A stretch of DNA of 57,498 bases, the filler included, from Dugesia japonica (Eukaryota): NCBI GenBank assembly GCA_001938525.1. It is 5 parts of 5 records of this genome, joined end to end, with 100 filler letters (N's around TTAATTAATTAA, not from the genome) between each part and the next. Parts side by side here need not be neighbours in the genome. Positions count along the whole stretch, not along the records: positions 19,337 to 34,241 come from MQRL01468391.1; 4 more parts are not named here. The stretch is one strand, 5' to 3'. The notes beneath the pieces were generated by a model. The model was not told where the DNA came from, did no database searches, and saw only the letters and a program-made list of their open reading frames with translations. Below, piece by piece: positions 5,051 to 53,659 of the stretch (position 1 is its first letter; every line of letters starts with the position of its first letter). Position numbers and translations under genes: made by a program.

Positions 5051-6760
5051 AGAAGGGTAGTGGCGCCACGGAACGGTCGTATGAATTATCGTGGCGTGTT
5101 TTTTGTGAGGTTTTAGATTTGTAGGAGATTATTGGATTTGAATGGTAGATATGTTGTTAGAAAGGTAATGTGATGGAAAAGATTTGTTATGTAATAGGTG
5201 CTTTTATTTTTTATTTAAAGACCTTTAATTTGATTGCTTGATTTTTGTAAGTAGTATAAGTGTGTTAAAATAATTTTTCGGGACGGAGAGAGTAGTATGT
5301 GTTGAAAGAGAATTAATTATTGAATTTTTTAATAATTATTTGAAATTTTTCTGTTTGGTGGGCATGACGTCATAATGTTTTGAAATCTTTATTTTGGTTA
5401 AAAATGCTGTAATTTGCTTAAATTGATGAATTTATTGAAAGTAATGGCATTTATGAGTATTTTTGACTGGGAATTGTGTTTTCATATTTTTCGAAACGGG
5501 AAGAGGAGAGTCTTGTTACTTTTTGAGGTGGGAAATTTAAAAAAAATTTTGGCGAGAAATTTAAAAACATATTTTTATGCGGGAAAATCCAAAATTTTTT
5601 TTCATGGGAAATTTAAATTTTTTTTGAACAGACTTTACATTTATTTATGAGATGAAGCAGTCTTGATATTTAGCATGGAGAGTTTCTATATTTAGTAAGG
5701 GGAGTTTCTATATTAAGCATGGTATTTGGCACTCTTGATATTTAGCATGGGGAGTTTCTATATTTAGCTTGGTATTGGGCAGTCTTGATATTTTGTATGG
5801 GACGGTCTCTATATTTAGCATGGTATAAGGCAGTCTTGATATTTTGAATGGTGTGGGGCAGTCTTGATATTTTGCAAGGAATTTGCATTCAAAATTCATA
5901 GGTATTTGATTTTCAGTGTAAGTATGTTGCATCTGAGTTGCATCTGAGTTGCATACCTATTCTATTTATTGAAAAAATCAGAAAATATTCAAAATGGCGG
6001 CTCTGTTGAGTTTTAAAAAATCAAAATGGCAGCTATGTTCAGTTTTAAAAATTCTAAGGCGCATGATTTTCAGTGAATGTGTGTTGCATNNNNNNNNNNN
6101 NNNNGTTGCATACCTATTGCATTTATTATTTTAAAATTTCCAGGCATGTGATTTTTAGTGTGTGTGTGTTGCTATAATGTATGTATGTATGCATGTTATG
6201 TATGTAACATACAATGTATGTATGTTATAAACCTTACATTACTCAGTTTCTATGTAAATATTAAACTCAAAATACGTTAAACAGATATAAAAATATTTAC
6301 TTATAGGGAATTCATAATTTAACTCATAATTTAACTTATATTTTTAACTCATAATAACTCATAATTTACTTATGAGAATTCTTGGCAACTGAGCTCCTTA
6401 CCTATTGTATTTATTTAAAAAAATCAATAAAAATTCAAAATGGTGGCCTTGTTGAGTTTTAAAAATATCTTTTTGGTGGGAAATTTAGTAAAACTTCTCA
6501 GACGCATGATTTTCAGTGTATGTGTGTTACATTCTTGTGACATTTGAGTTGCATACCTAATGCATTCATTAAAAAATCAATAAAAATTCAAAATGGCGAC
6601 TATGTTGAGTTTCAAAAATTTCTTTTTTGGTGGGAAATTTATTAAAAATTATCAGTCGCGCGATTTTTAGTGTATGTATGTTGCATCTGAGTTGCATTTA
6701 TTGAAAAATATCTATCAAAAACTTTAAAGAGGGTAGTCTATGTGATATTTACTTCAAATA
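5051..6760 (+). mobile_element. Probable Maverick-type end with subterminal tandem repeats
   Basis: GGGTAGTGGCGCCACGG at 5055 resembles GGTAGTAGCGCACGG of the 38333 terminus. It is followed by GGGAAATTT repeats, a ~50-bp tandem array (5658-5878) and larger repeats containing CAAAATGGCG. Confidence 0.45.
5658..5878. repeat. Tandem minisatellite (~50-bp unit, GCAGTCTTGATATTT...GAGTTTCTATATTTAG)
   Basis: GCA(G/C)TCTTGATATTT occurs at about 5658, 5729, 5779, 5830 and 5858. Confidence 0.85.
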
Positions 6761-6784
6761 AAAAAAGCTTTTTGTGGCAAATTT

Positions 6785-8644
6785 TCATAAAAACATATTA
6801 GCTGGATACTTTTCTGTAGAAAATTACAAAAAACATAGAACCTTTTTTCATAACAATCATAAATTCATGGTACCTTTCCATATATAACTAATAAGTCTAT
6901 ATAAAAACTTATAAGAAAATATTTTTATGATTGTAAACGGTTAATAAGTAAATAGGGTTTATGAGTGCATTATTTACTTAGTTACTTTGTATTATTTACA
7001 TAGTAACCCTGTATAACACGGTTTATGAGTATATTATTTGCATAGCAAATTACATTATAAGATTTATGAGAGTGATAATTGTCTTTATATATAACTAAAA
7101 GTTACTTTAAAAATTAATGTAAAAATACCTTTAAGGTCTATATAAAACTTAAAAGTAAATGTTGTTATGACTATATAGGGTTTATGAGTGTATTATTAAC
7201 ATACTCACTACGGCATATAATGTTTTAAATGTATTATTTACCTTCTCTTATGTACAAAATAAACGAGTAATTTAAAGTTTTGAATGTATAATTTACATAA
7301 TAACTGAGTAATATAGGTTTCATGAGAGTGGCTATCTTTGTATATATAACTTAAAATATTGATATATTCAGAAATCGTATGTTGGTGTTTTAGCATTATC
7401 ACTTGGTGTGCAAAATNNNNNNNNNNNNNNNNNNNNNNNNNNNNNNNNNNNNNNNNNNNNNNNNATAGTATTTGGCCAGTTTTAAAAATTAAATTTTTTT
7501 CATAATTAAGTTTACATTCGTCAATTAATTTTTTCCATTTCTCATTGCCATCCTACATTAATCTGAATATTGGTTCATATAGGATGCCAAATACGAAATT
7601 GTCTAATAAATTGTCTTCTTTGTCGTTCATGAATATACTCAGGTGATTTATATAATTAATTTTCTCCATAATACTAGCATTTTTATAATTTGATGAATTA
7701 AATATTTTTATAAATTCAATAATAAATTATATATATATTTCTGAATTAATAAATTGATTTATATTTGAATAGTTAAATTGATTTATATTTGAATTTGAAT
7801 GTATGATATTTAAATTTTTTCTTGACGACAATAATTAATTATTTTTAATACGTCGGATTTGCTTACTAATTCTATAACAAATGATAGTTATATTTAATAA
7901 CTGAATTTTGACTGATTTATATAAATAAACCCTATATTACACGATTACTGTGTAGATAATACCTTTATAAACCTTACATTACTCAGTTGCTATGTAAATA
8001 TTACACTCAAAATACGTTAAACAGACATAAAAATAATTACTTATAGGTTTTTTTTATAAGTTTATAAGGTATTAATACAGTAATTTTAAGTTATATATAA
8101 AAAGATAGCCACTCTCATGAACCCTAAATTACTCAGTTATTATGTCAATTATACACTCAAAACTTTAAATTACTCTTTTTTGTTGTAATTAATACAAGGT
8201 CACTAGGTAAATGAAAACATTATATGCCGGAGTGAGTATGTAATAATACACTCATAAACCCTATATAGTCATAACAACATTTACTTATAAGGTATTTATA
8301 CAGTATTTTTACAGTAATATTTAGTTATATATGAAGACAATTACCACTCTCATAAATCCTATAATGCAAATTGCTATGTAAATAACATCAGTACAATATG
8401 TAAATTAAACATGGTTGTTATGCAAATAATATACTCATAAAATCCTTAATACAGGGTCACTATGTAAAAAATACATAGTAGCTAAGCAAATAAAGCACTC
8501 ATAAACCCTATACAATCATAAAATTATTTTCTTATAAGTTTTATATAGACTCATTAAAGGTTCCATGAATTAATGAATTTTATGAAAACGTTCTGTTTTT
8601 TGTAATTTTGTACAGAAACGTTTCCAGCTAATATGTTTTTATGA
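6785..8644. repeat. Long internally repetitive inverted repeat (foldback-like element), arms ~6785-7357 and ~8083-8644
   Basis: aaacatattagctggatac...aaattacaaaaaaca pairs with 8595-8640. catgagagtggctatcttt.tatatataacttaaaat pairs with 8083-8120. The arms are built of ggtttatgagtgtattattta subrepeats. Confidence 0.85.
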
Positions 8645-8799
8645 GAAAGTGTCACTACTAATATGTTTTATTATAGAAAAAATTGTAACACTAACATGTC
8701 TTTTTGAATAGAAAAATTGACAAAGTCTTTTTAATTTTATTATAAAAAAACAAAGACTTAATAATAATACATTTATTCATCTATAAAAAAAATATTCAA

Positions 8800-9315: not shown

Positions 9316-9415
9316 NNNNNNNNNNNNNNNNNNNNNNNNNNNNNNNNNNNNNNNNNNNNTTAATTAATTAANNNNNNNNNNNNNNNNNNNNNNNNNNNNN
9401 NNNNNNNNNNNNNNN
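9316..9415. other. Artificial contig-joining linker (44 N + TTAATTAATTAA + 44 N)
   Basis: Exactly 100 bp. The core has stops in all six frames. The identical structure recurs three more times. Confidence 0.95.
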
Positions 9416-10195: not shown

Positions 10196-12968
10196 TCCCT
10201 CTCCATAGAAAAGGAAACTCGTTTTAGCCATTCAACTCGTCTTGACTTTGGTTTATCTGGAAAATTCAGAGGCACTTGATGGGGACTTAAAAAAATCTGT
10301 CTCCACTTTTATGAATATTATGAGGTTCCTTTTTTACAAGAACATTTTCACCAATTGCGAATTGTCTGTGACCTCTTGTATCTGATTCGTACTTTCTCAT
10401 TTCCTTCGCAACTCGTTTCAGTTCTACTTTTGTTTACTTGATCACTTGTTCATGAATAGCGATCTCATTTCTCAACAACTCATGTAACTGCACTTTTCGC
10501 CCATATAGAACTTCAAATGGAGATCTCTTAATAGCGCTTTGATATGTTGCATTAATTGAAAATACAATCTTGGGAATGTATTTATCCTAAGTAAATCTAT
10601 TCTTACCACTATTCATTGAAATGACTAACATATCTCTAGCTGTTATAGTTGCTCGCTCTGTTAGACCGTTGTCTTGATGTTGGTTAGGTGATGTAAATTC
10701 CTGTGTAATTCCAAATCTTACTCACAACTTGTTCATTTTTCTACCTTTAAAATCTCTACCTCGATCAGATAAGATTGATTTTGGTTTTCCAAATCGGTAA
10801 ATTAATTGGTTCTTTATTGCATCTGATATTCCTGTTTCATCTTGTTTACTAAGAAGTATCAATCGAACTAGTTGGCTAAATCTATCGATAATAACAAGCA
10901 AGTACTTTGATTAGACTTATACTCAGAAAAGTAGGACCCATCTATTACAATTTATTATAGTGGTCCAAATTCCTCTCTTGGTAACAATAGGTTTTTTGTT
11001 CGACCAGTGTAGACCTTCGTTTAGCACATATTTCACATTTTTGAATTTTGTGTTATATTTTTCTACTCATATCAATCCGGAAATATATTTATTGAATATA
11101 TTCCACTAACTTCTTGCTTCCCAAATGANATAGTTCTTTGTGCAAGTATTAAACTAATTTTGCTGAGTGATTTTCTGGTATAACGATTAGTTTCTTCTCT
11201 TGTTCATCTTTAATAACAATATTCTCAAATAATTTGAATTTATCTAAACTTTTAAAATATTTACTTTTCTTCACATCAGTAGTAACATTATTATCCAAGC
11301 CTTGTAACCATGGTGATATTGATCCTAGTATTCCACATTGGTTTTGCAATATTTTCGTCATAAAATACATTTTCGTTTAAACTGTTTATAAATCGAATTT
11401 TCAATTTAGTTCCTTTACTATCATGGTGTTTAGTTAAGCATTGAGTACACAACGTTTCATTTATTCTGGAAAATCCGTCAGCATTATTGTGATCCTTTCC
11501 TTTTCGATATTCTAAATCAAAATTAAATACAGAAAGATTAGCAAATCAAGTCTGAAACTGTGGACTAATTGGTTTNNNNNNNNNNNNNNNNNNNNNNNNN
11601 NNNNNNNNNNNNNNNNNNNNNNNNNNNNNNNNNNNAATCAAATAATGCTTAAAATGCATAACAAATTCATGAATAGCCAAAAGTTCTTTTCTGGTTACAC
11701 AATAACCTTTCTCATGATCATTTAAAACTCTCAACGCAAAACCTATAACTTTTTCATTACCTTTGTTATCGTTTTGGCTTAGAACAGCTCCAATAGCTCC
11801 AAAACTGGCACCAGTGTCCAGAATCATTTCTTTTGATGNNNNNNNNNNNNNNNNNNNNNNNNNNNNNNNNNNNNNNNNNNNNNNNNNNTAGTTAAGCATT
11901 GAGTACACAGCGTTTCATTTATTCTGGAAAGTCCGTCAGCATTACTGTGATTCGTTCCTTTTCTATATTCTAAATCAAAATTAAATCCAGAAAGATTAGC
12001 AAACCAAGTCTAAAACTGCGGACTAATTAGTTTATTTGTTTTTTTAATATAAGTCAAAGCTTTATGGTCAGTTCTTATTTTAAACTTTTCCCCAATCAAA
12101 TAATGCTTAAAATGCATAACAAATTCATGAATAGCCAAAATTTCTTTTCTGGTTGCACAATAACCTTTCCCATGAGAATTTAAAACTTTCGACGCAAAAC
12201 CTATGACTTTTTCGTCACCTTTGTTATCGTTTTGGCTTAGAACAGTTCCAATAGCTACAAAACTTACATCAGTGTCCAGAATCATTTCTTATGATGGATC
12301 AGGAAATGCTGTAGTTAATTCATCCTTTAGCTTTTGGAAATTACTTTCAGCCTCTTTGAACCACTCGCTCAATTTTTCATTTCCTGATATCATTGCATAC
12401 AGTGCTGCAGTAATAGTTGCATAATCTTTGATAAATCGACAATAATAATTAGTTAGTCCCAAAAACGATCTTAATTGCGTAACACAACCTGGGATTGGTG
12501 CTTTTTAAAATTTTTTTAATTTTATCATCATTTGTTTGAATTCCTTTTTGACTAATTGTGTGACCCAAAAAATTCAATTTATCAGTTCCAAATACACTTT
12601 TTCCTGGATTAACGTTTAATTTTGATGCTTTAATTGACTCAAATGCTTTTTCTAATCTTTGATTATGTTCATCGACAGTTCTTCCATAAACTAAAATGTC
12701 ATCTAAATAAACAATTACAACTTTATACAGCATTCCTTTAAAAATGAAATTCATTAAACTCTGAAAAGTTGTCGGTGCTGTACATAAACCGAACGGCAAC
12801 CGGTTAAAGCAGAACTGTCCAATTTTAGTACTAAAAGCTGTTTTCATCTGTGAATCTTCGTCTAACACAACTTGATAATAAGCTTGTCCTAAGTCTATAG
12901 ATGAAAAAATAGTTGACCCATTTAAAGTATCCAAAAGCGTGTTTATGTCCGGTATGGGAAATGAAAAT
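10196..12968 (-). mobile_element. Ty3/Gypsy LTR retrotransposon pol remnant (RT-RNase H-integrase), 5'-truncated, frameshifted
   Basis: RT motifs FSSIDLGQAYYQ, LPFGLCTAPTTFQ and VYLDDILV. RNase H motifs ILDTDVSF.AIGTVLSQ, TRKEILAI and IRTDHKAL. Integrase-like GKPKSILSDRGRDFK and FTSPNQHQDNGLTERA at about 10650-10800. Confidence 0.95.
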
Positions 12969-12974
12969 TTTTAT

Positions 12975-19236: not shown

Positions 19237-19336
19237 NNNNNNNNNNNNNNNNNNNNNNNNNNNNNNNNNNNNNNNNNNNNTTAATTAATTAANNNNNNNN
19301 NNNNNNNNNNNNNNNNNNNNNNNNNNNNNNNNNNNN
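19237..19336. other. Artificial contig-joining linker
   Basis: Same 44N-TTAATTAATTAA-44N structure. Confidence 0.95.
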
Positions 19337-23219: not shown

Positions 23220-24265
23220 AAGTGACCCTTACTTCGTATTCTCACCATCCAGCATAACTAATTACATGTTGGCATCTAAAAATTCCGTCCCGAGATTTTA
23301 CTCTTTAAAATCGCTTCCTATTCCATTTCCATCGTTTATACTCAATGTTTTTTGTCATTCCAATGATGTTAGTATTTAAGAGCCTTTAACACAAGATATC
23401 TGATAGGTCCAAGAAAATAGTAATACGAGATAAAATAAGAAAAAAATTATATAAAAATAATCATACACAATTTACATCATATAATTCGCACGCTTTGCCA
23501 AATTTATAACATAATTCATTGTTCCTAACACTACTCTTATATTAATAAAATTATCAATTATCATGAGATTATTCTAAATTTTAATGATAGCATTTACTTG
23601 ATCTTGACTTACATTGCAAATAATTTAATCCCACAACCGGTTTCAGTGGCATATAAACATTGCTCCCACCACATTCTGACCAGGACCAGATCATCGACGG
23701 ATAATTTACAGGTCCAGGTTCATAAATCTGATGGAATTGTTGATTAAAATATTCGATAGGTCCATCCAACTTCGAAATTTTGTGGATCTAAATCACTATA
23801 CACATTATCAAATACTTAGAAATAACGTTTGACAATATAACACCTTTCGTAAGTCATTATTTTCGAACAGAAATAATTGTTGAATGATTTTTCTTTTTTT
23901 GCCAATAAAAATCATTTGACTCAAAGTCATTTATCCCGATGTAAATGAGAAGGCATACGAATTTATTCATTTCATTTATCGTTATTTTTGCAAAATTCTC
24001 ATAAGCTTCATTTCCAAGCGTTTTTTTGGCATAGCTGTTTGACCATGTAAGAAACTATATTAGGGGTTGATAACTGTAATGGTGGCCTGCGTTGGAAGCT
24101 AGAAACAGGTAACTAGTTAGAACCAATATTTCCTTCTTCGGACACCATTAGCTGAACTTTCCTGATTTTCATGACCACTTTCTGGGGTTATTTGTTTCGT
24201 TTCCATTTCCTCCTATTAAGGTTTGGTCGATATCATTGTCACTGTTTGGTACAAATCTATCCATT
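23220..24265 (-). mobile_element. piggyBac transposase pseudogene
   Basis: TINEMNKFVCLLIYIGI..FYW, MTYERC.IVKRYF, IEYFNQQFHQIYEPG..LSVDD, VYMPLKP..GIKLF. Many stops and frameshifts. Confidence 0.85.
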
Positions 24266-25099: not shown

Positions 25100-26040
25100 G
25101 AATATAAAAAAAATAAACTTTACAAATATATACAAAATAAAATATATCACATTATAGTTTTTTTGATTTAAAGTTTCCAATTAGTGATCTCTGAATTAAT
25201 CTAATGAATGAATTGATTGTAGGTTTTTGATTGAATTTTTCATCGCATCGAAGTCCATGCAGATTGATTCGCCTGCATCGCTTGGATGAAGGCTTGGTTC
25301 ATTTGTAGACATGTCGGTTCTTTCACTCAGCAAGTGTTCATTCATTTTTAGAAGCTCTGAGTAGCTAGCATAATGGTCAACATAGTTCAAGGTGTTATGA
25401 ACCATCCATGTTCTCGAACACCAGTTAATGTTGCTAGCGATGCATTGAAATTTGATGTTGGTGATTGAGTTTTGTTTGATGTTGATAGCTTTCAGAATTG
25501 AATCGTTTTCTGATCTCCAACTACCAAGGCAACCGACAATAAAGGTTTTGAGATGTACTTTTCATGTTGGAAGAAAACCTTGTAGTTCTTCACGGAGACT
25601 TATATTTTCGAGATTGTCTTGATTAGCTTTTTCAAAGTTGGCAGAGATATCATGTAGTGTTTTGATATCTATTAAATATAATTCTTTTTGGCCTTAATTT
25701 AACTTGCAAAAAGACTCGAAGCTTTGACTCAATTGATGATGTACGAATAATTAGCAATGCAGTGACAGAGAATGTGACGTATTTGTCTATAGAGAGGTAA
25801 GAGTTTAGTAGGATAGTCGACATTTGAGTAGAATATACTGGGTGCTAAATGCCAGCATTATAGTTAAAGTCTTCATCGGTGGTTGAGACACAATGTAAGG
25901 TATCATCATAGTTGTCAATTGATTTTTGTTCGCATTATAATTTGACTTTAGGCAGCAGAGAAGATTAGACAGCATCTGCGTGAGATTGTTCAATTCAACA
26001 TTTTTCTTTACTCTCTGGTTATTATTGTTGGTCAGGATTG
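25100..26040 (-). mobile_element. 5'-truncated non-LTR retrotransposon, NeSL/R5/Utopia-like (zinc knuckle + restriction-like endonuclease)
   Basis: HILCHCIANYSYIIN (CCHC region), LYLIDIKTLHD..NFEKANQDNLE, KVHLKTFIVGCLGSWRSENDSILKAI. The last is the REL C-terminus pattern of the NeSL clade. Confidence 0.8.
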
Positions 26041-26129
26041 TTAGAAAAAGAATTAGAATTTGGAATAAATTTATTCAAGTAGTACTTATGGATATATTAT
26101 TTATAATCGCAATTAAAATTATCATTAAT

Positions 26130-27282
26130 TCCTGAATTTTCGATATCTAATTTTTCCGTTTGTTTAACTGTNGTTTTTAATGGTAGCTAAGCATCTATAA
26201 ACTAAATTTAATTTATGCATTAACCTCTACCTAAAACCCCTCATGATACACGGAGTACTAAAATGGGGTCGTTATTTTTTTAGATTATTTTCTATGAATA
26301 GTTTGAAGAATTCAACATTATAAATGTCCAATAATATTTCTTCACCAATTGCTACTTGCTTATCGACAAGATCTTCGAATCACAATTCTGAATTCATTTG
26401 ACACGTAGTAAAAAATCCATGCTTGAGACCATTGGGTAATATTATTATAAATAAAGATTTTCCGCTGTTTGAAACACCTTCGCAAATTATTGAAGAGGAT
26501 TTAGTACCCCGTTGAGATATAACCAAACCGACTGCAGCAATCCTAAAATCCACCATATTGGATTCATCACCCAAGCTCGCAGGATCATTTTTAGTAAATT
26601 CATTGAAGCCAAATTTGAAAAAAAGTAATCTCGATTGTATTTAATCATCATCAACGAACGAAAAAATTCCTTGCTATAATTATCATGAAAAACACATTGT
26701 CGAACAGGAATGTCACGATTTATAAGACTCTTTAACAAAGTGCAAACTTATTGACAAATTTTTAGCCTGGAATTTTTCTATACCGACATGGCTTCTACAA
26801 AATCCAACTAAATTTGTTAGCCGGCTAAATGACACATACAAATATTATACTGGCCAAAAGGAAGTATCAAGTCAGGGCTACCGTCTTATATAGTCAGGAA
26901 GTAAACGTCTATCAAAGGAATCCATAAAACTATCAGGATGTTTATATACTCCACTATATATTTGCTGTTTTGTATATTCCCATTGGTCGTATAGTTCCCT
27001 ATGTTTCACTAGTTTCTCTGTGGGAAGCGTAATTAAATGTAGAGATTTATGAGGTAGATTATCTTTTACAATAGTATTTTTTGGATTAATTATATTTTCA
27101 ACTTTAAAATCCAAAATACTTTTGTCAAAACCAGTATTAAAGGCATCAAAACGGGTAGACAGACTTTCCTGAGTAGATGAAGATTGGTTTGAGTGTAATT
27201 TGCCGATAATAAGTTGATTTATAGGCTTAATAGAATGATTAATAGCCCCCTTAATTATCCCCCAAGGCTCATATAACCCCAC
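26130..27282 (-). pseudogene. Endogenous parvovirus-like NS/Rep gene (SF3 helicase), frameshifted
   Basis: Walker A CEGVSNSGKS (about 26455-26484), Walker B FEDLVDKQVAIGEE, B' VEFFKLFIEN, C-like STPCIM. It is preceded by LKMILRAWVMNPIWW..VISQRGTKSSSII, matching parvoviral NS1 context. Confidence 0.85.
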
Positions 27283-27289
27283 GCATGAT

Positions 27290-27470
27290 TAATCGTTATA
27301 TTTTTATATGTGAATGTTTTACTATAAGGTTTATCTATATATTAACATATTTTAATTTGATTGGTCTAATTTATCGTGTATGTGTGTAATGTTTAATTAT
27401 ACAAATATTCTATAATATAACATTTACTTATAAAAATAGGAATGAGTCATAAATAAAAAACATTTATTAA
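27290..27470 (-). promoter_or_regulatory. Viral intergenic region: VP polyA signal followed by putative NS promoter
   Basis: Minus strand: AATAAA (27468-27463), TGACTCA (27449-27443), CCAAT (27364-27360), TATAAAA (27308-27302), about 20 nt before the NS ORF. Confidence 0.45.
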
Positions 27471-27534
27471 ATAACATTAAGGCATAGCAAAATTAGTATT
27501 CAAATGATGAGATTTGGCAAATTTAAGTCTATTA

Positions 27535-28768
27535 TCAGTAATTTTTTGGAAATATTTCTTCTTGCTTTTCATCTTCAGGCTTTGTATGATTATAAAAGAA
27601 ACATGGTATTGCATATGGTATCATTGGTATAACATATTTACCAAAATTTATTGTTTCACCTGGTGCAGACAACATTCTTCTAACACTCATTGATCGTACT
27701 TGACCAAATACTCTAAAACTATATTCACATTCCCAATTAAACGAACATATTAAATGCATTTTACTACCAGCTACACCAACAATTGCATTTAATTTATAAA
27801 ATAATAAAGACATTGGATTATGTTCAGATACATCAAGCAAATTACCCACTTGTTGATATTCCATAAGATTTTTTATTCCCGTATTATTATTTAAATATTT
27901 CAATATATTTGTTTTCTCTGTTTTACCATCTGCTTTCTTTTTACCGTCGAATTCATTAGTTAATCCAATATTAACTCTTCTATATTTATTATTATTCCAT
28001 CCATGCTTTTTTATTCTATGTGGCATAGTAATTAATTGCTTACTCTCTGTAACACTCTTTCTACCCAATTGTCCACCAATCATTGTTCTTAATGGCAAAT
28101 ACTTTTTACAATTGAAATAATCAAATCTATTATATAACATTGGTTTACTTAGTTTAGCCTTTCCTTTAGAATATATATCCTTTTGTTCATCCCATTCTAT
28201 TACATGTCTGGGTAAATTCTTATTACATTTATAACTGTAAATAAATTCATCTCCAGCATTACAATTTCTAATTTCAACTTCTGCACAAGTTTCAAATATA
28301 CAAAAAGGTCCATATGTTGGTAAAGTCACTGATTTCGGAGTAAATAAAGCTCCATTTTTATCTAATCCGTTATGCAGCATTCTTTCATCCTCCCAAATAT
28401 CTGTAAACTATTCACCATTCTTTAATAATGTAGCACAAGGTCCAAATAAATGTGCATTATCTACATATACTAAAAATTCAGCTTGCGGTTGTAGTCCAGC
28501 AGTAGTAGTTGGATTAGTCGCACCCACTACTTGTATATTAAATATACGATATTTCATTTCTAACGGTTCAAACCATTGATAGGCTAGCATTTCTGCAATT
28601 TGTTGTGGAGATTGATTAGCACAATGTGGAAAATAGTATATTAGTGGCTTGGAAATTGTTGTCTCCTGTAGTTGGCCTTGAAATTCATAGTTTGTCTGCT
28701 ATTGAAACCATAAGATGGATGGTATTCATTGTTTCTACTTTAGCCATTTTGCTTAAAGTTTTGGACAT
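27535..28768 (-). pseudogene. Endogenous parvovirus-like capsid (VP) gene; one premature stop and a 5' frameshift
   Basis: KPLIYYFPHCANQSPQQIAEMLAYQWFEPLEMKYRIFNIQVVG..EFLVYVDNAH compares with parvoviral TPWxYF..FSP..FRP..KLFNIQV..VFTD. Also LPTYG..IFET..AGDEFIYSY and C-terminal LLFYKL..CSFNWECEY. ORFs 28408-28590 and 27535-28380 are in frame across one TAG. Confidence 0.85.
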
Positions 28769-30269
28769 GAAGAGTGGTCTAATTTTCGCTAATTCGATAT
28801 ATTTCTAAAACTGATTTTTGGCGATTTTTGTCTCTAATTTTTGGCTAATTTAATAGATAGATCTGTTGGGTATTTCTATTCAACAAAAATATATGGTTCG
28901 TATTTTATAACTGTGTAGTTTTGTTTTCTTCATTTAAATCAACTTAAATAAGACTTGATTCAATATTTTATTTAAAATACAAACAATTCTTCTTTGAAAT
29001 TCTTGCTTTTTGAACGTTTCTTCCAACACTTGCCTTTCCCAATTTATGCTTTTAAATAACAATAAACTTAAACAAAATTATTATATTTATTAAAACATAT
29101 TTTGCAAATAAAAAACTTTCGAATTTAAAATAATTTAAAAATAAAACGATAAAATCCAATTATTAAACTTTTCACTAAATATTTACATTTAAAAACTTTT
29201 GTAAATAAATATTTTTATTAAAGCTTTATAATTAAATTTCAAATATAAATTTAAAAATTTAAACTAATAAACATTGATTTTAATAAAATATTTACGAATT
29301 TTTAAAATACTTAATAATAACTACTGACTAACACACTTGAGAATTTTGCGGAAGTTGATTTTTTTATTTTATTTGTTGTATGTAAATACTACACTATATA
29401 TCAAATATAATTATTCAAAATGTATAAATAGGGCGATATTGATTAATTGACCTTATTTAAATAAATGAAGATAAACCTTTTTGAAATTCTTATTTTTTAT
29501 GTATAATAAAATAACAACTATACCTAACACATTAAGCGCAATATTTTGATTTAGCCGAGTACAACTTTCCTTAGAGGTCTCTGTAAATGAGAAAAATTGG
29601 AAAAACTGATGTTAGCCTTTCATATTTATACTAAATTTACACTGGGCACCGACTACTTTACATAATTTTAAAAAAATTTTCCATAAATAAATACATATTC
29701 CAATTTACTGTTTAAAGATTTCAAATGTACTGTATATGAAAATTTTGCCTGATTGAACTTTATAATAAAGTTCATATCTTTGTTCAAATAATAATAAATA
29801 AAATAAAATCACTAATTTTGTTCAAACAAGATAAGAATTATTGGTTATTTATCATAATAGAATAGAGTCGAAATTTTTGTTGTTCATTGCTTGGAATTAA
29901 TATTGTTGAGGAGTAATTGGCTCGATCTTTGGTTGTTGATTGATAATTTGAAGATCACCTTTTGTATTTAATTTATGCATATGATCCCAACAGATCGTTT
30001 GCGTTTTCATCTTAAATTGAGATTAGATTATCCATAATTATAACATAAATAGAGATTCAATTTTCTTTAGATAGACCGGGAAAGTGAGAGCGAAATAAGT
30101 GATGATTTTATGAGAAATAAATTGATTGTTGAAGAAATAATTGTTGCACGACATTTAGAATCCACTTGAGAAACTGATTATAAATTAATTACTAGTGAGA
30201 AATGTCAATTCCATAAATCGAAATATTCCAGTTTATATTGTAGAAATTTCTTGAAATTCACAAAAATTG

Positions 30270-31420
30270 AAATTTTCAATGTTGAGATATAAATGTAAAT
30301 TGTAGCAAATAAACTACTTTTAATAATCAGTAATGATGATAATTTTTTTAGATTTTTAAAAATCGGCTAAGAATCTAAATATTATTGACCCATTCCTAAA
30401 AATTTTGAATTCGTTGCATAAAAACATTAGATTCCCTACAGAAATGGAATGTACATCTAAACTTTCTTTCCTTGACTTATTAATAGAAATTAATTCCAAA
30501 CATTATGAAACAGATTTATTACAAACCAACCGACACATCTGTTAGTTTTTGTGAATCTCGTTACAAGTATAACATGATTAAAAGTCTGTTGTATAGATCG
30601 TGGACTCTTTCATCTTCATATTTAAGTCTTGTACTAATATTCAAAGTTTAACTTTTTTTCTAAATAAAAAATGTTATTGTAAATCAATTGTAGAGAAATT
30701 AAATCATGAAACAATTGATAAGATCGTTTAAATTAATTCTAATAAATTAAAATTAATAAAATTAAAGATGAAATTAACTATTCGTATTCAGAAGGATTTA
30801 AACAATTTCAGAGTGGGTTATTAAAATATAGAAATGACTCTTCTGATTTTAAAATTGTTTCGCAATATTAAAGCCATTAATATTTTTAGTAATAAGTTAA
30901 AAACACTAATTAAATTATGTTCTGATCTTATTTATAAATATGAATGTAATGGGTGTAATGCCACATACATAGGAGAGATTTCTCGTCATCTCTGTACAAG
31001 AATTCAAGAACATCGTCGAGTATGTAGTGGAAGTCATTGCTGAACATAATATTAATTTTAAATCAGTTATCAATATAAATAAATATAAAATTTTGTGCAG
31101 AAACTTTAAAGATTATTGAGAGAGATATGTGTAAAGTATTGGTGATAATATCAATTGATCCGAAATTTAATGTTGAAACTGGTCTTTCTAAATGTTTATT
31201 GAATGTTTTTAATTAATTTGACTTATTGGAGGGATTGCATAAACATAATCAGAATTTTTTGTATATCAGCATTTTTATAAAAATTAAAAAAAAGAATAAA
31301 TATTATTTTAATAAAGAATTTTCAAAAAAGAATTAAATTATTGTATCCGAAGATGACAGATAATCTGTCGAAACATTTAATAAAAAATATATTTAAAAGG
31401 CGTTTCAAAGTTTATATTAA
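30270..31420 (+). mobile_element. Penelope-like element 3' half (RT thumb, GIY-YIG, pLTR)
   Basis: LNSLHKNIRFPTEME..LSFLDLLI and LIYKYECNGCNATYIGEISRHLCTRIQEH. Confidence 0.9.
31336..31387 (+). ncRNA. Minimal type I hammerhead ribozyme motif in Penelope pLTR (core mutated)
   Basis: CCGAAGA (consensus CTGANGA) T GACAGA-TAA-TCTGTC GAAA CATTTA, then AATAAA. Confidence 0.7.
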
Positions 31421-34241: not shown

Positions 34242-34341
34242 NNNNNNNNNNNNNNNNNNNNNNNNNNNNNNNNNNNNNNNNNNNNTTAATTAATTAANNN
34301 NNNNNNNNNNNNNNNNNNNNNNNNNNNNNNNNNNNNNNNNN
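34242..34341. other. Artificial contig-joining linker
   Basis: Same 44N-TTAATTAATTAA-44N structure. Confidence 0.95.
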
Positions 34342-40974: not shown

Positions 40975-43890
40975 CTGTGATTTTCCCCGAATGTTGCATA
41001 GGACTCTTAACTAACGTTACTTCCTTTTACTAGCTTGATTTTTGTGTCTACTAGTACTTGCAAATGAATACAATGGCTTTGTGATCTGTTCTTGTTATGA
41101 ATTTTTTCCGATATAAATAATGCTTAATTGTGGTTGCAGAAGTAGCAGATTGCGAGTAATGCCTTCCGTGTGATACAGTACCCCTTCTCATGTGATTTCA
41201 TTGCATGTGAGCCATAAGCAATCACTCTTTCTCTTCCGTCGCCATCATTTTGTGATAGGACCTCTCCTATTGCGTCGAAGCTGGCATCAGTATCTAAAAT
41301 AAATGTCTTCTTTATATTAGGGAAGATTTCATTTCATGTTTCATTTCTGCAAAAGCTTTCTCATATCCATCTGAACATATTAGCTTTGTGCTGTTGCTTC
41401 CACATAATTCTTCTACATCTCTTGATTTCTTTGAATAATTCTTGATGAATCTTCTGTAATAATTGCATATTTCGAAGAAGCTTCTCAGGTTCTTTACAAA
41501 TTTCGGTTTCTCAAAATTTTTGATAGCTTCCATTTTCATTAGATCTGTTCGAATTCCTTCTTTATGTATTATGTGACCAAGAAATTTCACTTCTTTGAAT
41601 AATAGGTGACATTTTTCTGGATTCGCTGGCAACTCTGCCGTTTAGATCCGCTCTAATACCTGACTCTGAGTTATATAATATTATTTTAGTCCTTCTGAGA
41701 ATATCATTATATCATCCATATACACCGTTGCTCTATCTAGACCGTCAAATACTTTTGTCATTAGTTCTTGTAATGTTCCTGGGGCTGCTGCCATGCCAAA
41801 TGGCATTCTTGTGAAGCAATATTGATCATTTTGTTTGTCGAAAAGGCTATTTTCTCTTGTGTCTCTTTTTCTAACGGTACCTGGTAATACGCGTTTCCCA
41901 AGTCTATGGTTGGCTCCATACAAATTGTCTAACATTTCTTCTACGTTTGGCATCGGGAAGGCCTGTCGTTCCCTAACTGTATTTAGTTTCCTGAAGTCCA
42001 AGCAAAGTCTCACACCCTTTCTTTCTTTCTTCCAGACGCATATCAGTGGTGTCTTTCACTGCAAATTACATTTTCTTATAATATTAGCGTCCGCTAATGT
42101 TTTTATGGCCGTATCTATTTTTTCTTCTAGATTCATGGGTTGTCTCCAAGGCTTCGTATTTATTGGATTACCCTTTGTCACTATCTTGTGTTTCGCCAAT
42201 GTTGTGCATACGTTATCTGCTATGAATACTCATATATGTTTTACTATTCCCTTTCCAGTTTTTCGTCTCGTTTTGTCATCAAAATTTTCAAAGCTCTCTA
42301 TTCTCTTTCAGCATCCTCAATTTTAAGGCCAAACCGTGCAAACCGTTCTCATAATCCTTTGTTTCTTACGTCAAACGGTATCCAAACTGGCGTTGCATGT
42401 CTATTCCTCCAACAAGATTCGGACTCATTTCTTAACATACGGTGAATTGTACGATTTTCTTTTTGTTTCCGATCTCCACTTCTACATATATTTTGCCCGC
42501 AATGTTCATTCTTCTATTATTTGCTCATTTTAACAAGTCATCAGTTCCTATCAGCTCCACATTTGCCAGATTTTGAAAAATATTGAGGCTCATCGCGTTG
42601 ATCTTTGCACCTGTATCCAAAAGGCAGTCCATATATCTTCCTTGAATTCTAACTTCCACACTGAGCCTACCTTGCATTCCATCATAAATTATTTTTACTT
42701 GTTCATTCCCTTCTAATACCATTATTTTGTTATCATCATTTCTCGTTTCTTTCATTATATTGATATCTGTATTATACATATCTTTAAAATCTTTCTTTAA
42801 AAACTCATAAACCTTTCTTCTCTACTCTTTACTTTTTAATTTCATCTTTTATACTATTAATTATACTACTTTTATTATACATATGTATATCGCGGTCTGG
42901 AATTTTTTTCAGTTCATTGCTCCAGTCATCTTGACTTTGAATAGACCTTGTCTGTTTGTGGCTTGTTCTATATATCTGTTTGTCTCTTCGTCGTAATAAT
43001 AAATATTATCTCCTCTCTTTATGTACTCCTCATCTTCTTCTATCATTGCGTTTACATATCTACTGCCGTCTCTTTTCCTGAATCCATTTTTCACTGATGT
43101 CTTCCCACTTGGTTATGGGAATCTATTATTATCGTCATATCTTCTGTTTGATTCATCTCTTCAGTTGTATTGTGCTGCTTTGTTTCTTTGTTCGTTATTC
43201 TTCTGTCTTCTATCATTAGTCCACACACATCCTTTCTCCGAAATAGTATAACATTGTTCTGTATGATGTCCATTTTTTCCACATCTTGAACATCTAATTT
43301 TGTCACAATTCCTTCTTATATGATTCTCTTATCCGCATGCATAACACATTCTTTTCTTTTCCGGACAATTTCTGCTGATATGACCAAAATTTAATTTCTT
43401 TTTTAGCTTCAATTTGAGAAATGTTTTTGGTTTCTTTGTGTAAAAAATGAGAAATGTTATTTTGCCGTGCCTCTTTTTACTGCATTGGTGNAACTCTCCA
43501 CCGTATTTATATTATCTGTTTCTTTCAGGTCCTCATTTAGTTCAACATATGATTTTATTTTTGCAGCTATCTCTTCCGAGTTAGCTAGTTTGCCTATTTA
43601 AATATTTATTTGCATCCTTTTATCGCGGCAATTATTGAATATTAATTCTTTTGTCACCTCTTCTTTGTCTAGTTTGCGTGCAAAGATTTTATCGAACATT
43701 GTTAAAATCTTTTTCTTGTACACATAAACGTATTCATCCGTTCTCTTGTATTTTAAAGCTTCCTCCAAGTTTTGTATTAGAGCAGTCCTTTTGTGGAACG
43801 CTTTTCTCAGTCAGTCCTCAAAATCTAATAATTCATCTTGGCATTCGTATGGTTCTCTTAATTCTTGGAACTGTGCGTGGAAAAAGAGTG
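40975..43890 (-). mobile_element. Ty3/Gypsy gag-pol remnant (gag zinc knuckles, protease, RT, RNase H; integrase missing)
   Basis: GHISRNC..CYACG.ENHIRRNC, LLDTGAKIN, RLCLDFRKLN, MPFGMAAAPGTLQ, VYMDDIMI, FILDTDASFDAIG. Confidence 0.95.
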
Positions 43891-46182: not shown

Positions 46183-47485
46183 CAGTCCGCTTCTAAAGTC
46201 TGTTCGCACACATGTAAATTCATAAGTCAATACGTATTTTTAATTTTTTTCAATTTGTTAAAGTAATGTAAATGGCAAAATATAGTAAATAATATTTTTA
46301 AAAATGTTATCAACTTATATTAAATGTATTTGATATTATATGACACATTTTAGATATAATGAATAATCAAAACGTCCTGATGAAGAACAGAATAATAATT
46401 GTGAAATTGATGATGGAAGGGTATAGTACTTGCTCAATAAAGCAAATAATGACAAACTGGCCTCATATTGATGAGTCAAAGCGTGGCATTCAAAGAATTG
46501 TGCATAAAAATAAGACCGAAGGAATGTATGTGGATCAGAGCCGCAGTGTAAGACCACCGAAATTATCAATACACATATTTATTCGACATTTATGCTAGAA
46601 AAATAAAAGCATGTCGCTAACGAAAATAGCACGTACTTGTAACATGGGTAGCATTCAACATCTGCCAAGATACACAGTTCACCGCATTCTCAATAAGTAC
46701 GAATTAAGAAATTATCCGACTGTTAGCAAGCCGTTGGTCAATAATAAGCAAAGGAAAAGAAAATTGCAATGGGTTATATCTAAACAGCCATGGGATGTTG
46801 ATATATGGGCACATGTTGTTTTTAGTGATGAGTCAGTGTTTCGCACATATAAGGCTGTTTCAACATGAAAGATTAAGTCGTATTTGTACTAAGAAGCTTA
46901 TTCAATATGGTGTGAAAATCCATGTGTGGGGATGTTTTTCATGATTCGGTGTAGGAATTCTAAAACGAATACAGGCTACATTGAATTCTGCAAACTATCA
47001 AAAAAAAATTTCAATGACATTGACCTAGTTGGCAAGTGCTTGATCTTCCCTCTGTGTAGGTTCATATTGCAGCATGACAATGGTCCTTGCCATTTCTCTG
47101 CATCAACATTTTCTTTTCTCAGTGAAAGTAAAATCGATATATTAAATTGACCTGCAAATTCTCCTGATGCCAATCCGATTGAAAATTTTTGGCATTTCAT
47201 AAAGATCAAAATGAATACCTTTGGACCTCTGAATGCTCATGAAATGTAGGCGGAGTTATAGAAGATATGGTATAATATACCCACTTCCTTATGTAGCATT
47301 CTCGTTGATTCCATGCCACGAATAGTGTCCTCTATTATCAAGATCAAAAGATACCCAACAAAATATTAATAAACTTACTATCGTTTGTAAATATAATGTT
47401 TCTTCCTTTTCCATTGGCTTTTCAAACGATTTTTCTGTAATTTTTGTAATTTACATAGGTGCAAACAGACTTTTGAAACGGACTG
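46183..47485 (+). mobile_element. Full-length Tc1 (DD34E) transposon, inactivated
   Basis: 38-bp TIRs CAGTCCG(C/T)TTC(T/A)AAAGTCTGTT... with 5 mismatches and TA on both flanks. Motifs VVFSDES and QHDNGPCH-x-SPDANPIEN with 34-residue D-E spacing. Contains stops and frameshifts. Confidence 0.95.
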
Positions 47486-48339: not shown

Positions 48340-48439
48340 NNNNNNNNNNNNNNNNNNNNNNNNNNNNNNNNNNNNNNNNNNNNTTAATTAATTAANNNNN
48401 NNNNNNNNNNNNNNNNNNNNNNNNNNNNNNNNNNNNNNN
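48340..48439. other. Artificial contig-joining linker
   Basis: Same 44N-TTAATTAATTAA-44N structure. Confidence 0.95.
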
Positions 48440-50059: not shown

Positions 50060-52000
50060 CGCAATTTTTAAAAACATTTATTTCTGAGACATGTTTCGGA
50101 CAAATCTATGTCCACCATCAGTTACTGTGGTAAAATAAGGAAAATTGGCCAAAAAAATCTGTAACGTAATCAATATAATAAAATAAGATTAAAATAAAAT
50201 TAAAAGCCAATGTGTGTCAATTTGAGTATTAAGAATCGGATTATTGGAGAAATGTTTGGAGAAATTTATTTTAATCCAATTTTATTGGATTGATAATGTA
50301 GCAAGTTTTATTGGCCAGTATATAAACAATTTCCTTCTTATATATATATAAAACGCAAAAGAATTCCTATAACCAAAAATTTCATATAGAATTGTATACA
50401 TTTAGGATGGTTAATTCCGTTCCATTATTCAAATATGAGTTTTGTTCTTATATTTCCTGTTTAATGAATAAACGGTTTGTTTATCTGATTCAATTCTTAA
50501 ATTGAGTAAATTAAATAATTTAAATAAGTAATCATGAATTATTTCAAATTTTATAAGTTGTGTGAGAAAGCTTACCAAAACCTTTTTTCACTAAACTTGT
50601 TGAAAGCATACCACGCAGATGCCAAGCTGTTATTAATAATGACCGAATACCAACCAAATAGAAATTTTCAATTCTCAATATTTTATTATAGTTTTTCAAT
50701 TCAAGAGTCTCTGACTCATAAAATATTGCAATTATTAAAGCTTAAATTACAGCTTAAAATGTCCACTATATAGATTAGAAATACAGCAAATAAAACATCC
50801 AATGATTCCTTAATTCTTTCATCAAAATGGAAGTATACTCAAACATATAGATACAGGATACTAATTTACAATCCTCATATTATGAAAATTGATAACAACG
50901 TCTTATATCATGATTATATTAAATATTAAGACCTTCAATTTAATTTATTACAAACATATAAACACAAAAAGAAAAGCATTGAACAAAGTAAGGGAAAAAT
51001 TGTTAAAGAAATTAAAATTTTAAAATCAATTATCAATACACCAACAGACAAAACAAATAAATTAGTAGCTCTATCTGAATAGACAAACATTATTATGAAA
51101 CAAGAGCCTACAAAAGACTACCAACTACAGAAGAAATTAAATTCAGTAAACAATTAATTCAAATAGCAGACTGAAATGAAGACCCAAAAAAATGTTTACT
51201 TTTAACAGTTCCATTCTCGTACCATGTGCCTAAAGTACAAAAATCTATTTTAAAAGGAAGTTCTATTATAAACGCTTCTGACATTCATTCAAACTGTATT
51301 ATCCAAACTTATGGCAGATATATTAAAATTACTATTAAGTTTTCTTTCGACAAATTTGAAGAATAGTTTATTAAATTACGACTGGAAAAGTGATGATGAA
51401 TTTATTTCATTAGATGTAATAAATTGATACTAATCAATTCTAATTGAAGGACCTGAAAAAGTCATTGATATTATTATTGACTTCTTTGAAAGATACAAAG
51501 AACATACAGATATTCAAGATATCACCAAAAATGATTTCAAATGTATTATTAATTTGTGTCTCTGATAGCACTTTCATCGGTGGACAACTGTTTAAATAAA
51601 AAAGTGGTCTTGCAATTGGTAACAATTTATTTCACATTCTGGCGATAATTTTCACGAATCAAATAATTCTTAAATCAAACAAGAAAAATCATCTATGGTT
51701 TAGACACAGATGATATTTTTTGTAACTAATTCTCTTTTAAAGAAGATTTTAGAATTAGCCAATAGCATAAATTATAACATTGAATTCACTTTAGAGAAAT
51801 CAATTGACTTTCAGATATCTTTTATGGACACTTTAATCCAAAGGAAACTACTCAATTATATACAAAAACCATTTCAAAGTGGACATATATTACCTTGGTA
51901 ATACTACCATTAGATAAAAATTGGAATAATCAAGGGCAAAAGTATCCGAGCTGAGAGAATATCTTCAAATAAAGGAATGAAATTGATTTCTCTCAAGTTG
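50060..52000 (+). mobile_element. Penelope-like element: inverted pLTR (50060-50480) followed by RT-coding region, decayed
   Basis: FSYHVPKVQK, DDEFISLDV, KSGLAIGNNL, WFRH.DDIF, LELANSINYNIEFTLEKSIDFQISFMDTLIQR...KPFQSGHILPW. Confidence 0.85.
50078..50130 (-). ncRNA. Minimal hammerhead ribozyme motif in inverted Penelope pLTR
   Basis: Minus strand: CTGATGG (consensus CTGATGA) TGGACA-TAGATT-TGTCC GAAA CATGTC, then AATAAA. CATG gives the palindromic stem III and GTC the cleavage triplet. Confidence 0.75.
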
Positions 52001-52983: not shown

Positions 52984-53287
52984 TTAAGTAAAATACATAT
53001 GATTTAGACAACCACCAGCGGTTATTCTGTTTTTATAATTATAATTAAACATTGAACATAACAAATCTCTTAAGCGATCGGGCTGGATAAATTTTTTCAG
53101 TTTATCATTCAATTTCGAATCGGTTATTATATCGTTTTCAGATATGTTGAACAGTGGCTTTCCAAAATCTTTATCTTGAAATATCGGTTTTTGTAAACAC
53201 ATGTATGAAATAACACATGCTGCACTCCATACGTCAACAACTGTTCCGTAATTTTTGTTTTCCAATAATTCTGGAGCATTATAAAAA
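52984..53287 (-). CDS. Divergent GSK3-like (CMGC) Ser/Thr kinase, last exon
   Basis: Acceptor tttcag at 53288. Reads FYNAPELLENKNYGTVVDVWSAACVI...QKPIF...DLLCSMFNYNYKNRITAGGCLNHMYFT*. The phase matches the donor at 56947. Confidence 0.85.
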
Positions 53288-53659
53288 CTGAAATTTAGAA
53301 TTATTGTTAATTTTATAGCAGTCTCTATATTTCAATAATGAATTTAAATTATTTAAAAACTCTTAGAAAATAAATGTGAACATTTAAAAATATTTCCAAT
53401 TATATTAATATTAGTTTAGGAATAATAAATAAATTTTAAATGTGATTTAATAAAAGATTTTAGCAAAATAAAACATTTTTATATTTTTATAGCGATTTTA
53501 ATTTATGATCAATTTCGAGATTGTTATTTTCAGTTTCGTAATGATATCATTTTCTTATTCATTAAGTAATTTTGTAAACATATATATTATGAATAAATGA
53601 ATAAATACATAAAATAAAAGTATAAAAACCAATATTATTTACAATGGTAACCTATTTAT

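What the first reader, a model, noticed from the sequence alone, without database searches (positions are those of the whole stretch)
26070..28910. Parvovirus-related endogenous virus with inverted gene order: capsid first, helicase second, same strand
Seen: a parvoviral-type VP (27535-28768) lies upstream of an SF3-helicase NS gene (26130-27282), both on minus. Each has its own TATAAAA (28909, 27308) and AATAAA (27468, 26075), and they are separated by about 250 bp of AT-rich DNA with no GC hairpin. Established: monosense parvoviruses are NS-then-VP, ambisense ones are convergent, and concatemer junctions carry terminal hairpins. Inference: this is a fossil of an undescribed parvovirus-related lineage with VP-NS organisation (circular, segmented or permuted genome). 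Decay is modest (one stop and one frameshift in VP), so exogenous relatives may still exist.
Basis: partly seen in the sequence, partly recalled or inferred. Interest (0 to 1): 0.85.

Follow-up and report, generated by a model that had tools for sequence, protein, structure and literature searches.

The report
Decayed parvovirus-like fossil, joined tail-to-head
This is a broken copy of a small, very divergent parvovirus-like virus stuck in an animal-like genome, and its capsid-before-helicase order most likely reflects where a circular or repeated viral DNA was cut, not a new genome plan.

Summary
The layout is real. On the minus strand a capsid-like gene (28768-27535) precedes an SF3 helicase gene (~27285-26100), each with TATAAAA and AATAAA. 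The helicase core aligns by eye, gap-free over 71 residues, with tapeworm EmuDNV NS1 (20 identities) and Aedes brevidensovirus NS1 (19). The capsid call is only suggestive: the best PDB hit is a parvovirus-type VP3 at E 0.41.

The spacer holds a degenerate AT-rich palindrome (50-nt arms, 37/50 paired, 40-nt loop; 0 of 500 shuffles reach it, 4 of 162 like-GC tiles do). Known NS-then-VP tapeworm elements already give each gene its own TATA and poly(A) signal and form VP-hairpin-NS junctions in concatemers. The helicase gene is heavily broken.

Best reading (0.6): one genome-equivalent of a compact NS-then-VP parvovirus, integrated from a head-to-tail circle or concatemer. A natively circular or VP-first lineage is not excluded (0.15): no terminal redundancy or HUH motif was found. 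Interest 0.38.

The parts
28903..28909 (-). TATA-like box upstream of the capsid-like gene (about 140 nt before the ATG)
   Evidence: sequence; chance about 0.10 in 150 nt
28814..28851 (-). Degenerate 11-nt tandem repeat (3.4 copies) in the capsid leader; possible iterons, untested
   Evidence: TRF score 39, 67% matches
27535..28768 (-). Capsid-like gene, about 410 codons, no PLA2 motif; broken by one frameshift near the 5' end and one stop (28410-28408)
   Evidence: top PDB hit 9n5x VP3, E 0.41, two colinear stretches; 290-codon ORF reached by 0 of 2000 shuffles; no PLA2 pattern in capsid frames
27463..27468 (-). AATAAA after the capsid-like gene
27299..27438 (.). Degenerate AT-rich palindrome: arms 27438-27389 and 27348-27299, 40-nt loop containing a CCAAT at 27364-27360; candidate genome end-to-end junction
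   Evidence: score 39 vs 24.6+-3.9, 0 of 500 dinucleotide shuffles; 7 of 414 window tiles and 4 of 162 like-GC tiles reach it, the spacer tile included; no stable fold today
27302..27308 (-). TATA-like box of the helicase gene, inside the inner palindrome arm
26881..27288 (-). 136-codon open frame at the 5' end of the NS-like gene; no HUH motif; identity not established
   Evidence: Atlas no hit; AF2 pLDDT 37; Foldseek nothing at E<=0.001
26641..26880 (-). Broken middle of the NS-like gene: 8 stops in the main frame; open stretches in different frames (26844-26716, 26747-26490)
26100..26640 (-). SF3 helicase domain: Walker A (26478), Walker B, B', motif C remnant; stops at about 26382, 26274, 26229; shorter than relatives after B'
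   Evidence: Pfam PPV_E1_C E 0.064, sole hit; Atlas features match D5_N/DUF5906/P4-primase clusters at 0.91-0.93, top unnamed cluster 0.97; by-eye gap-free alignment with sequences printed
26070..26075 (-). AATAAA after the helicase gene (could also belong to the neighbouring element)
25196..26060 (-). Flank, probably not viral: decayed, 5'-truncated frame resembling the C-terminal endonuclease region of an RLE-type non-LTR retrotransposon
   Evidence: translation; likeness recalled from memory; Pfam and PDB gave no hit

Best explanation
A dead endogenous viral element: one genome-equivalent (about 2.8 kb) of a compact, monosense, NS-then-VP parvovirus-like virus. Its helicase is of the brevidensovirus/penstyl/flatworm-EVE type and its short capsid lacks PLA2.

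Shown: the two genes, their order, their lesions and the central palindrome.

Inferred: in an infected germline or stem cell the viral genome was joined tail-to-head (circular episome or concatemer). A piece running from the capsid promoter, through the joined termini, to the end of the helicase gene was ligated into the chromosome or survived erosion there. The spacer palindrome is the remnant of the joined termini, which is why the helicase TATA box lies in one arm and its reverse complement in the other.

From established parvovirus biology: in the ancestor the SF3 helicase drove replication and packaging, and 60 capsid subunits formed a T=1 shell. Today neither gene can give a whole protein, so the locus cannot replicate.
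For: Helicase: sole Pfam hit PPV_E1_C, the domain also reported for EmuDNV-NS1. Gap-free by-eye alignment over 71 residues with EmuDNV-NS1 (20 identities) and Aedes NS1 P27454 (19); those two share 23 (sequences as printed). Size fits: Walker A lysine at about residue 276 here, about 287 in the 431-aa EmuDNV-NS1.

Spacer palindrome sits where a junction is predicted; its loop is 40 nt vs 37 nt for the EmuDNV ITR.

EmuDNV has TATA plus AATAAA for each gene. On contig_0221 it reads VP (6665-7630), ITR (7668-7969), NS (from 7969) on one strand, and most loci are head-to-tail concatemers.

Head-to-tail episomes with a VP-stop/non-coding/NS-start junction are known in bocaviruses. A 2571-nt NS-then-VP coding region exists in SwaBA-MiPV-1.
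Against: No terminal redundancy was found. The DNA upstream of the capsid gene does not match the helicase 3' end (113-199 of 300 shuffles as good; hand-picked windows 5-82% tail). Both ends fall near cassette borders, which random cutting of a circle would give only in a minority of cases (inference).

The arms are too unlike for the capsid's decay. One stop implies about 5% divergence or less (P=0.0035 at 10%), while 37/50 arm identity has P=0.0008 at 5%. So the palindrome must have been imperfect from the start, or is chance (about 2% of like-GC tiles). It does not fold stably.

In full-length EmuDNV units about 1.36 kb separates ITR and NS promoter, and the NS copies that abut the ITR are 5'-truncated. 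No HUH motif was found. Capsid and helicase differ in CpG depletion (11 vs 27 expected; 26 vs 30; Fisher P=0.035) and in base make-up (P=0.019).
Confidence: 0.6

Rival explanations
1. A natively circular (or linear VP-first) parvovirus-like virus. The two same-sense cassettes and the stem-loop between them are the true genome plan, the palindrome is an origin, and the helicase may lack its own HUH nuclease.
For: Both cassettes are whole in span, with no terminal redundancy. The palindrome is imperfect beyond what the capsid's decay predicts. No HUH motif. Parvovirus-like contigs with apparently circular genomes are reported, though over 5 kb (PMC11071296). No relatives were found.
Against: A single locus cannot tell a circular genome from a circular episome of a linear one. 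Every layout feature is already seen in NS-then-VP EmuDNV concatemers. No CRESS-type nonanucleotide lies in the spacer (none of the 24 window matches at <=1 mismatch). The HUH motif may have been lost to decay.
Confidence: 0.15
2. Two pieces of different origin or age (a capsid gene and a helicase gene from different viruses or insertions) lie side by side, or the locus was rearranged after insertion.
For: Unequal decay: 2 lesions in the capsid vs roughly 7-9 in the helicase gene (the second figure is an estimate). CpG and base make-up differ. The capsid's best hit is a Parvovirinae-type VP3, while the helicase looks brevi/penstyl-like.
Against: No other parvovirus-like piece occurs in 57 kb, so two unlinked insertions 250 nt apart on one strand are unlikely. 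Parvovirus capsids need not follow the NS1 tree. The signals and palindrome knit the two genes together.
Confidence: 0.1
3. A bipartite virus (like AdSDV, or PEVE-like) whose capsid and helicase segments were ligated end to end and integrated together.
For: Each gene is a self-contained cassette with a palindrome between them. AdSDV, a brevi-type virus, is bipartite with shared termini.
Against: Shared termini predict arm-like sequence at the outer ends. Scores there are ordinary (top 25-98% of 11,035 windows). Segments of about 1.4 kb would be far below AdSDV's 3.3 kb.
Confidence: 0.08
4. A non-LTR retrotransposon reverse transcriptase copied viral RNAs by template jumping, giving capsid, then helicase, then a retrotransposon 3' fragment.
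For: A same-strand, 5'-truncated RLE-like frame starts within about 100 nt of the helicase AATAAA (likeness recalled).
Against: TATA boxes and the spacer would not be in mRNA, and no poly(A) tract follows either signal. The window is rich in transposon relics, so adjacency is cheap.
Confidence: 0.05
5. The upstream gene is not a capsid at all.
For: No significant hit in Pfam, in 1.84 billion representatives (the one hit is a SprB-repeat artefact), in the PDB (best E 0.41) or by fold (pLDDT 31). Two short pieces gave no parvovirus hit.
Against: The best of 6 PDB matches for the core is a 60-chain VP3, with two stretches in the right order. It neighbours an NS1-type helicase. Further strand motifs occur in the expected order (recalled, not tool-tested).
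Confidence: 0.02

Closest known systems
EmuDNV, endogenous densovirus-like elements of Echinococcus multilocularis (PMC6880638)
   Same: NS1 of similar size (431 aa) with PPV_E1_C domain; helicase core gap-free at 20/71; short VP; separate TATA and AATAAA per gene; VP-ITR-NS junctions on one strand; ITR loop 37 nt
   Different: VP 321 aa vs about 410; stem 95-165 nt and 89-100% matched vs 50 nt at 74%; about 1.36 kb between ITR and NS promoter in full units; HUH-like motif visible in EmuDNV-NS1 but not here; VP homology untested
Brevi-/Penstylhamaparvovirus (Penbrevirinae), e.g. Aedes densonucleosis virus NS1 P27454
   Same: helicase core gap-free at 19/71, including EG before Walker A; small PLA2-less capsid; penstylviruses lack hairpins
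   Different: Aedes NS1 is 849 aa; genomes about 4 kb and NS-then-VP; no capsid similarity to them detected in PDB searches
SwaBA microparvovirus 1 (PMC13426907)
   Same: about 2.6 kb two-ORF coding span, no PLA2, no close relatives, capsid not modellable
   Different: free, linear, NS-then-VP with recognised RCR motifs; sequence not compared here
PEVE / PIVE (planarian) and DENSOV_HM (Hydra)
   Same: invertebrate parvovirus-like elements described with Parvo_NS1/PPV_E1_C-type helicases (PMC3198968)
   Different: PEVE is recalled as about 7.5 kb with two helicase-like regions between inverted repeats (paper not held); sequences not compared
Bidnaviridae
   Same: parvovirus-type capsid with an SF3 helicase lacking the nuclease domain
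   Different: no PolB gene among 110 window ORFs scanned; bidnavirus segments are 6-6.5 kb
Human bocavirus head-to-tail episome (PMC3125170)
   Same: VP stop, non-coding joined termini, NS start
   Different: vertebrate virus, 5.3 kb, 513-nt structured junction, extrachromosomal

Membership tests
Parvoviridae | SF3 helicase domain in NS1 | tested here: met
   Walker A/B; PPV_E1_C E 0.064; Atlas SF3-type clusters; by-eye alignment to NS1s
Parvoviridae | N-terminal HUH endonuclease on NS1 | tested here: inconclusive
   No HUH pattern in any minus frame of the gene; Atlas, Pfam and fold blank. The gene is decayed and its length leaves room for the domain.
Parvoviridae | Single jelly-roll T=1 capsid protein | tested here: inconclusive
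   Top PDB hit VP3 9n5x E 0.41; AF2 single-sequence model unusable; Foldseek nothing
Parvoviridae | Linear ssDNA genome with terminal palindromes | not testable with these tools
   Integrated copy. One internal palindrome, none at the outer ends.
Parvoviridae | NS cassette left, VP cassette right; about 4-6 kb | tested here: not met
   As it lies: VP then NS, about 2.8 kb. Explained if permuted; a 3-kb parvovirus is described. Hence filed as parvovirus-related, not as a family member.
Penbrevirinae / flatworm EmuDNV-type elements | SF3 domain clusters with the group in a phylogeny | not testable with these tools
   No reference sequences could be fetched into the session; by-eye identities only (19/71 and 20/71)
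Penbrevirinae / flatworm EmuDNV-type elements | Short capsid without PLA2; separate promoters for NS and VP | tested here: met
   No PLA2 pattern in the capsid frames; two TATA-like boxes; promoter function not shown
Bidnaviridae | Protein-primed PolB gene | tested here: not met
   No DNA polymerase among 110 ORFs of at least 65 aa scanned with Pfam
Cressdnaviricota | Stem-loop with nonanucleotide origin and HUH Rep | tested here: not met
   No match to the canonical nonamer (<=1 mismatch) in the spacer; no HUH motif
PEVE/PIVE-like elements | Two helicase-like genes in unique regions between inverted repeats | not testable with these tools
   Primary paper not held; only one helicase in the window

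The most novel reading that the evidence does not exclude
A fossil of a minimal (about 2.8-3 kb), natively circular parvovirus-like virus of an invertebrate. It would pair a Parvovirinae-like capsid with a brevi/penstyl-type helicase that lacks its own nicking domain (so helper- or host-dependent), with an AT-rich stem-loop origin between two self-contained cassettes. Its 136-codon ORF might be a separate small gene rather than the NS1 N-terminus.
Probability: 0.15. Interest if true: 0.75.

Novelty: new member of a known kind. Interest (0 to 1): 0.38.

Why it matters
On the likely reading, this is a fossil of a very divergent, very small parvovirus lineage with no relative in the databases searched. 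It is useful for parvovirus phylogeny and host range, and it warns that gene order at one endogenous locus can be a junction artefact. On the novel reading it would blur the line between parvoviruses and circular ssDNA viruses and show a nuclease-less, helper-dependent life cycle. One look at other copies in the host genome would separate the two.

Tried and rejected
Homology searches that found nothing. Pfam on whole frames: 0 families for 3 of 3. PDB sequence search of the helicase frame: 0. Word-index protein search: 0 of 588 candidates for the capsid, 0 of 685 and 0 of 144 for the helicase. Representatives search with the capsid: 1 hit in 1.84 billion, rejected as a SprB-repeat artefact. 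GTDB scan: 0 of 53 pattern matches confirmed. Phage tblastn: none. Rfam: none.

Folds. AF2 single-sequence models have pLDDT 31 and 37; Foldseek gave no match at E<=0.001 for either.

Terminal redundancy between the capsid promoter region and the helicase 3' end looked plausible by eye but is not significant. No arm copies at the outer ends. No terminal inverted repeat around the element (68 of 300 shuffles as good). A stretch at about 29050-28960 that resembles a helicase C-terminus has no Pfam hit in 3 of 3 frames and was dropped. An 'HIH' at 27384 lies in the spacer loop among stops and was dropped. A PLA2-like pattern at 27003 (recalled likeness) has no Pfam or PDB support.

Unchecked. The capsid was not examined in the ESM Atlas. 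Viral and metagenome contig collections and the host genome were not available, so other copies and free relatives stay unchecked. The host taxon was not determined: an AT-rich eukaryote with introns and many transposon relics. The PEVE paper was not held. The supplements of PMC11071296 (genome maps of circular parvo-like contigs) were not seen and may hold the same layout.
Full report
1. Observation. The minus strand carries a capsid-like gene from ATG 28768 to stop 27535, then about 250 nt at 19% GC, then a helicase gene from about 27285 to about 26100. The capsid gene has one frameshift near its start and one stop at 28410-28408; its 290-codon open stretch was reached by 0 of 2000 shuffles. 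The four signals are where stated. Singly they are weak (chance 0.04-0.37); together they are suggestive, though the helicase ends were chosen after the fact. The helicase gene is badly broken: 9 stops in 337 codons of its best frame, long open stretches that change frame, and no in-frame ATG at the 5' end. The window is an AT-rich eukaryotic region with LTR-type reverse transcriptase, DDE and Tc3-type transposase relics and a two-exon kinase. The host was not identified.

2. The helicase. Walker A lies at 26478. The only Pfam family for the core is PPV_E1_C, E 0.064. Atlas features of the natural 86-codon ORF match D5_N, DUF5906 and P4-primase clusters at 0.91-0.93, with an unnamed cluster on top at 0.97. 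Figure S2 of PMC6880638 prints EmuDNV-NS1 and two Aedes brevidensovirus NS1s. Counting by eye from the lysine before Walker A to the B' motif, the window's frame aligns without a gap over 71 residues, with 20 identities to EmuDNV-NS1 and 19 to P27454; those two share 23. After B' the window sequence is shorter than both. This is a hand count without an E-value or a tree. No HUH motif was found upstream, and the 136-codon N-terminal ORF stayed unidentified, although the distance from start to Walker A (about 276 codons) fits a whole EmuDNV-sized NS1 (about 287).

3. The capsid. Tools give only weak support. For the 121-residue core, the best of 6 PDB matches is a 60-chain VP3 (9n5x), E 0.41, in two colinear stretches around the helix-strand-loop-strand motif. 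For the 96-residue ORF it ranked 7th of 9, and two downstream pieces did not hit it. Later strand motifs look parvoviral to me from memory; this was not tested. Pfam, the word-index search, the 1.84-billion search and the fold search gave no real hit. With an NS1-type helicase beside it, I accept the capsid reading at about 0.95 or higher. No PLA2 pattern occurs in the capsid frames.

4. The spacer. It does not fold stably (z +0.93; z -0.57 for the palindrome alone), so 'no GC hairpin' is literally true. But the longest inverted repeat in 6 kb lies in it: 50-nt arms, 37 paired, 40-nt loop. Its stem score of 39 was reached by 0 of 60 base shuffles under each of three scorings, by 0 of 500 dinucleotide shuffles, and by 7 of 414 genomic tiles (4 of 162 at like GC), its own tile included. 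The helicase TATA box is in the inner arm. Against over-reading it: one stop in 386 capsid codons implies low divergence (P=0.0035 at 10%), whereas perfect arms decaying to 37/50 need about 10-14% (P=0.0008 at 5%). The palindrome was therefore imperfect at insertion, or the capsid was spared by selection, or the palindrome is a roughly 2% coincidence.

5. What is known. In E. multilocularis, EmuDNV has a 431-aa NS1 followed by a 321-aa VP, an ITR 37 nt after VP with a 37-nt loop, and TATA boxes for both genes. Table S2 lists an AATAAA after each gene and, on contig_0221, VP (6665-7630), ITR (7668-7969) and NS (from 7969, 5'-truncated) on one strand. So self-contained cassettes and a VP-hairpin-NS order both arise from an ordinary NS-then-VP genome. 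Bocaviruses form head-to-tail episomes, penstylviruses have no hairpins, and a 2571-nt two-gene parvovirus exists. Precedents for the rivals exist too: apparently circular parvovirus-like contigs, bipartite AdSDV and nuclease-less bidnavirus helicases.

6. Tests between readings. A concatemer slice might show terminal redundancy; none was found, which fits a single opened circle or eroded ends but does not prove either. A bipartite virus with shared termini should leave arm copies at the outer ends; none score above background. Independent origins are hinted at by unequal decay and CpG depletion in the capsid only (11 observed vs 27 expected; 26 vs 30 in the helicase), but no other parvovirus-like piece occurs in the window. 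A same-strand RLE-like retrotransposon fragment abuts the helicase end (likeness recalled, no tool hit), but retained promoters and missing poly(A) tracts argue against RNA-templated insertion.

7. Mechanism, most likely (0.6). A compact monosense parvovirus-like virus infected a germline or stem cell (inferred). Its genome was joined tail-to-head (inferred from the central palindrome and from EmuDNV and bocavirus precedent). One permuted genome-length piece entered the chromosome and decayed (the lesions are shown; the route is inferred). It is now inert. Rivals: natively circular or VP-first 0.15; separate pieces 0.10; bipartite 0.08; retrotransposon template jumping 0.05; not a capsid 0.02.

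8. Novelty. The virus is undescribed as far as the searches reach, but endogenous parvovirus-like elements with head-to-tail junctions are a known kind. I file it as parvovirus-related rather than as a member of Parvoviridae, since the HUH domain and jelly-roll fold were not shown and order and size differ as it lies. Ten literature searches turned up no monosense VP-first parvovirus in the listings or passages I read. One search returned 0 papers for at least 2 of 5 order terms; this is weak, since only exact phrases in open-licence papers are matched.

9. Papers seen. PMC6880638: passages, Results part 1 of 2, supplements 3 and 5, supplement 1 part 1 of 3. PMC13426907: abstract and sections 3, 17, 19, 22. 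PMC3198968: passages and supplement 1 hits. PMC13055364: abstract and passages. Passages only: PMC11071296, PMC10267136, PMC3125170, PMC11357303, PMC4061559, PMC5013282, PMC9896142, PMC9707805, PMC6631224. PEVE (PMC116598): not held; recalled only.

10. Verdict. Observation partly confirmed; interpretation partly supported; new member of a known kind; interest 0.38. The novel case has probability 0.15 and would rate 0.75.

Noticed in passing
window 27003-26925 (-): A His-x3-Tyr-Asp pattern followed by spaced Tyr/His/Asp/Phe in the 136-codon ORF recalls the catalytic half of parvoviral PLA2 (from memory); the calcium loop is absent. SwaBA-MePV-1 has a PLA2 ORF upstream of NS1. No Pfam or PDB support.
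   Followed up: partly
window 26060-25196 (-): Decayed, 5'-truncated frame resembling the C-terminus of an RLE-type non-LTR retrotransposon, directly after the helicase AATAAA (recalled likeness).
   Followed up: partly
window 28785-28775 and 27372-27362 (-): The same 11-mer occurs in the capsid leader next to the tandem repeat and in the palindrome loop; my rough chance estimate is about 0.1.
   Followed up: no
window 27535-28768 vs 26130-27285: The capsid gene is CpG-depleted (o/e 0.41) and has 2 lesions; the helicase gene is not depleted (0.87) and has many more. Selection on the capsid after insertion is possible.
   Followed up: partly
window 26105 (-): A TATAAAT at the very end of the helicase gene, where an NS-then-VP virus would have its capsid promoter; similarity to the 28909 promoter region is not significant.
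   Followed up: yes
window 30360-31043 (+): Fragments that read like a Penelope-type element with a GIY-YIG-like motif (likeness recalled, no Pfam hit).
   Followed up: no
window 52987-53331 and 56926-57498 (-): Two exons of a divergent GSK3/CMGC-like kinase split by an intron of about 3.6 kb.
   Followed up: partly
window 11431-12970, 41127-42821, 23860-24054, 46599-46865, 51968-52249: LTR-type RT/RNase H relics (one with a local duplication around N gaps), and DDE_Tnp_1_7, Tc3-HTH and DDE_1 transposase relics.
   Followed up: no
window 9316-9415, 19237-19336, 34242-34341, 48340-48439: Four gaps of identical form (44 N, 12 bases, 44 N), probably an assembly or masking artefact.
   Followed up: no
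window 6774-8655, 50126-50376 and 55640-55735: A 600-nt inverted repeat pair at 75% identity and two strong short palindromes, probably transposon ends or MITEs.
   Followed up: no
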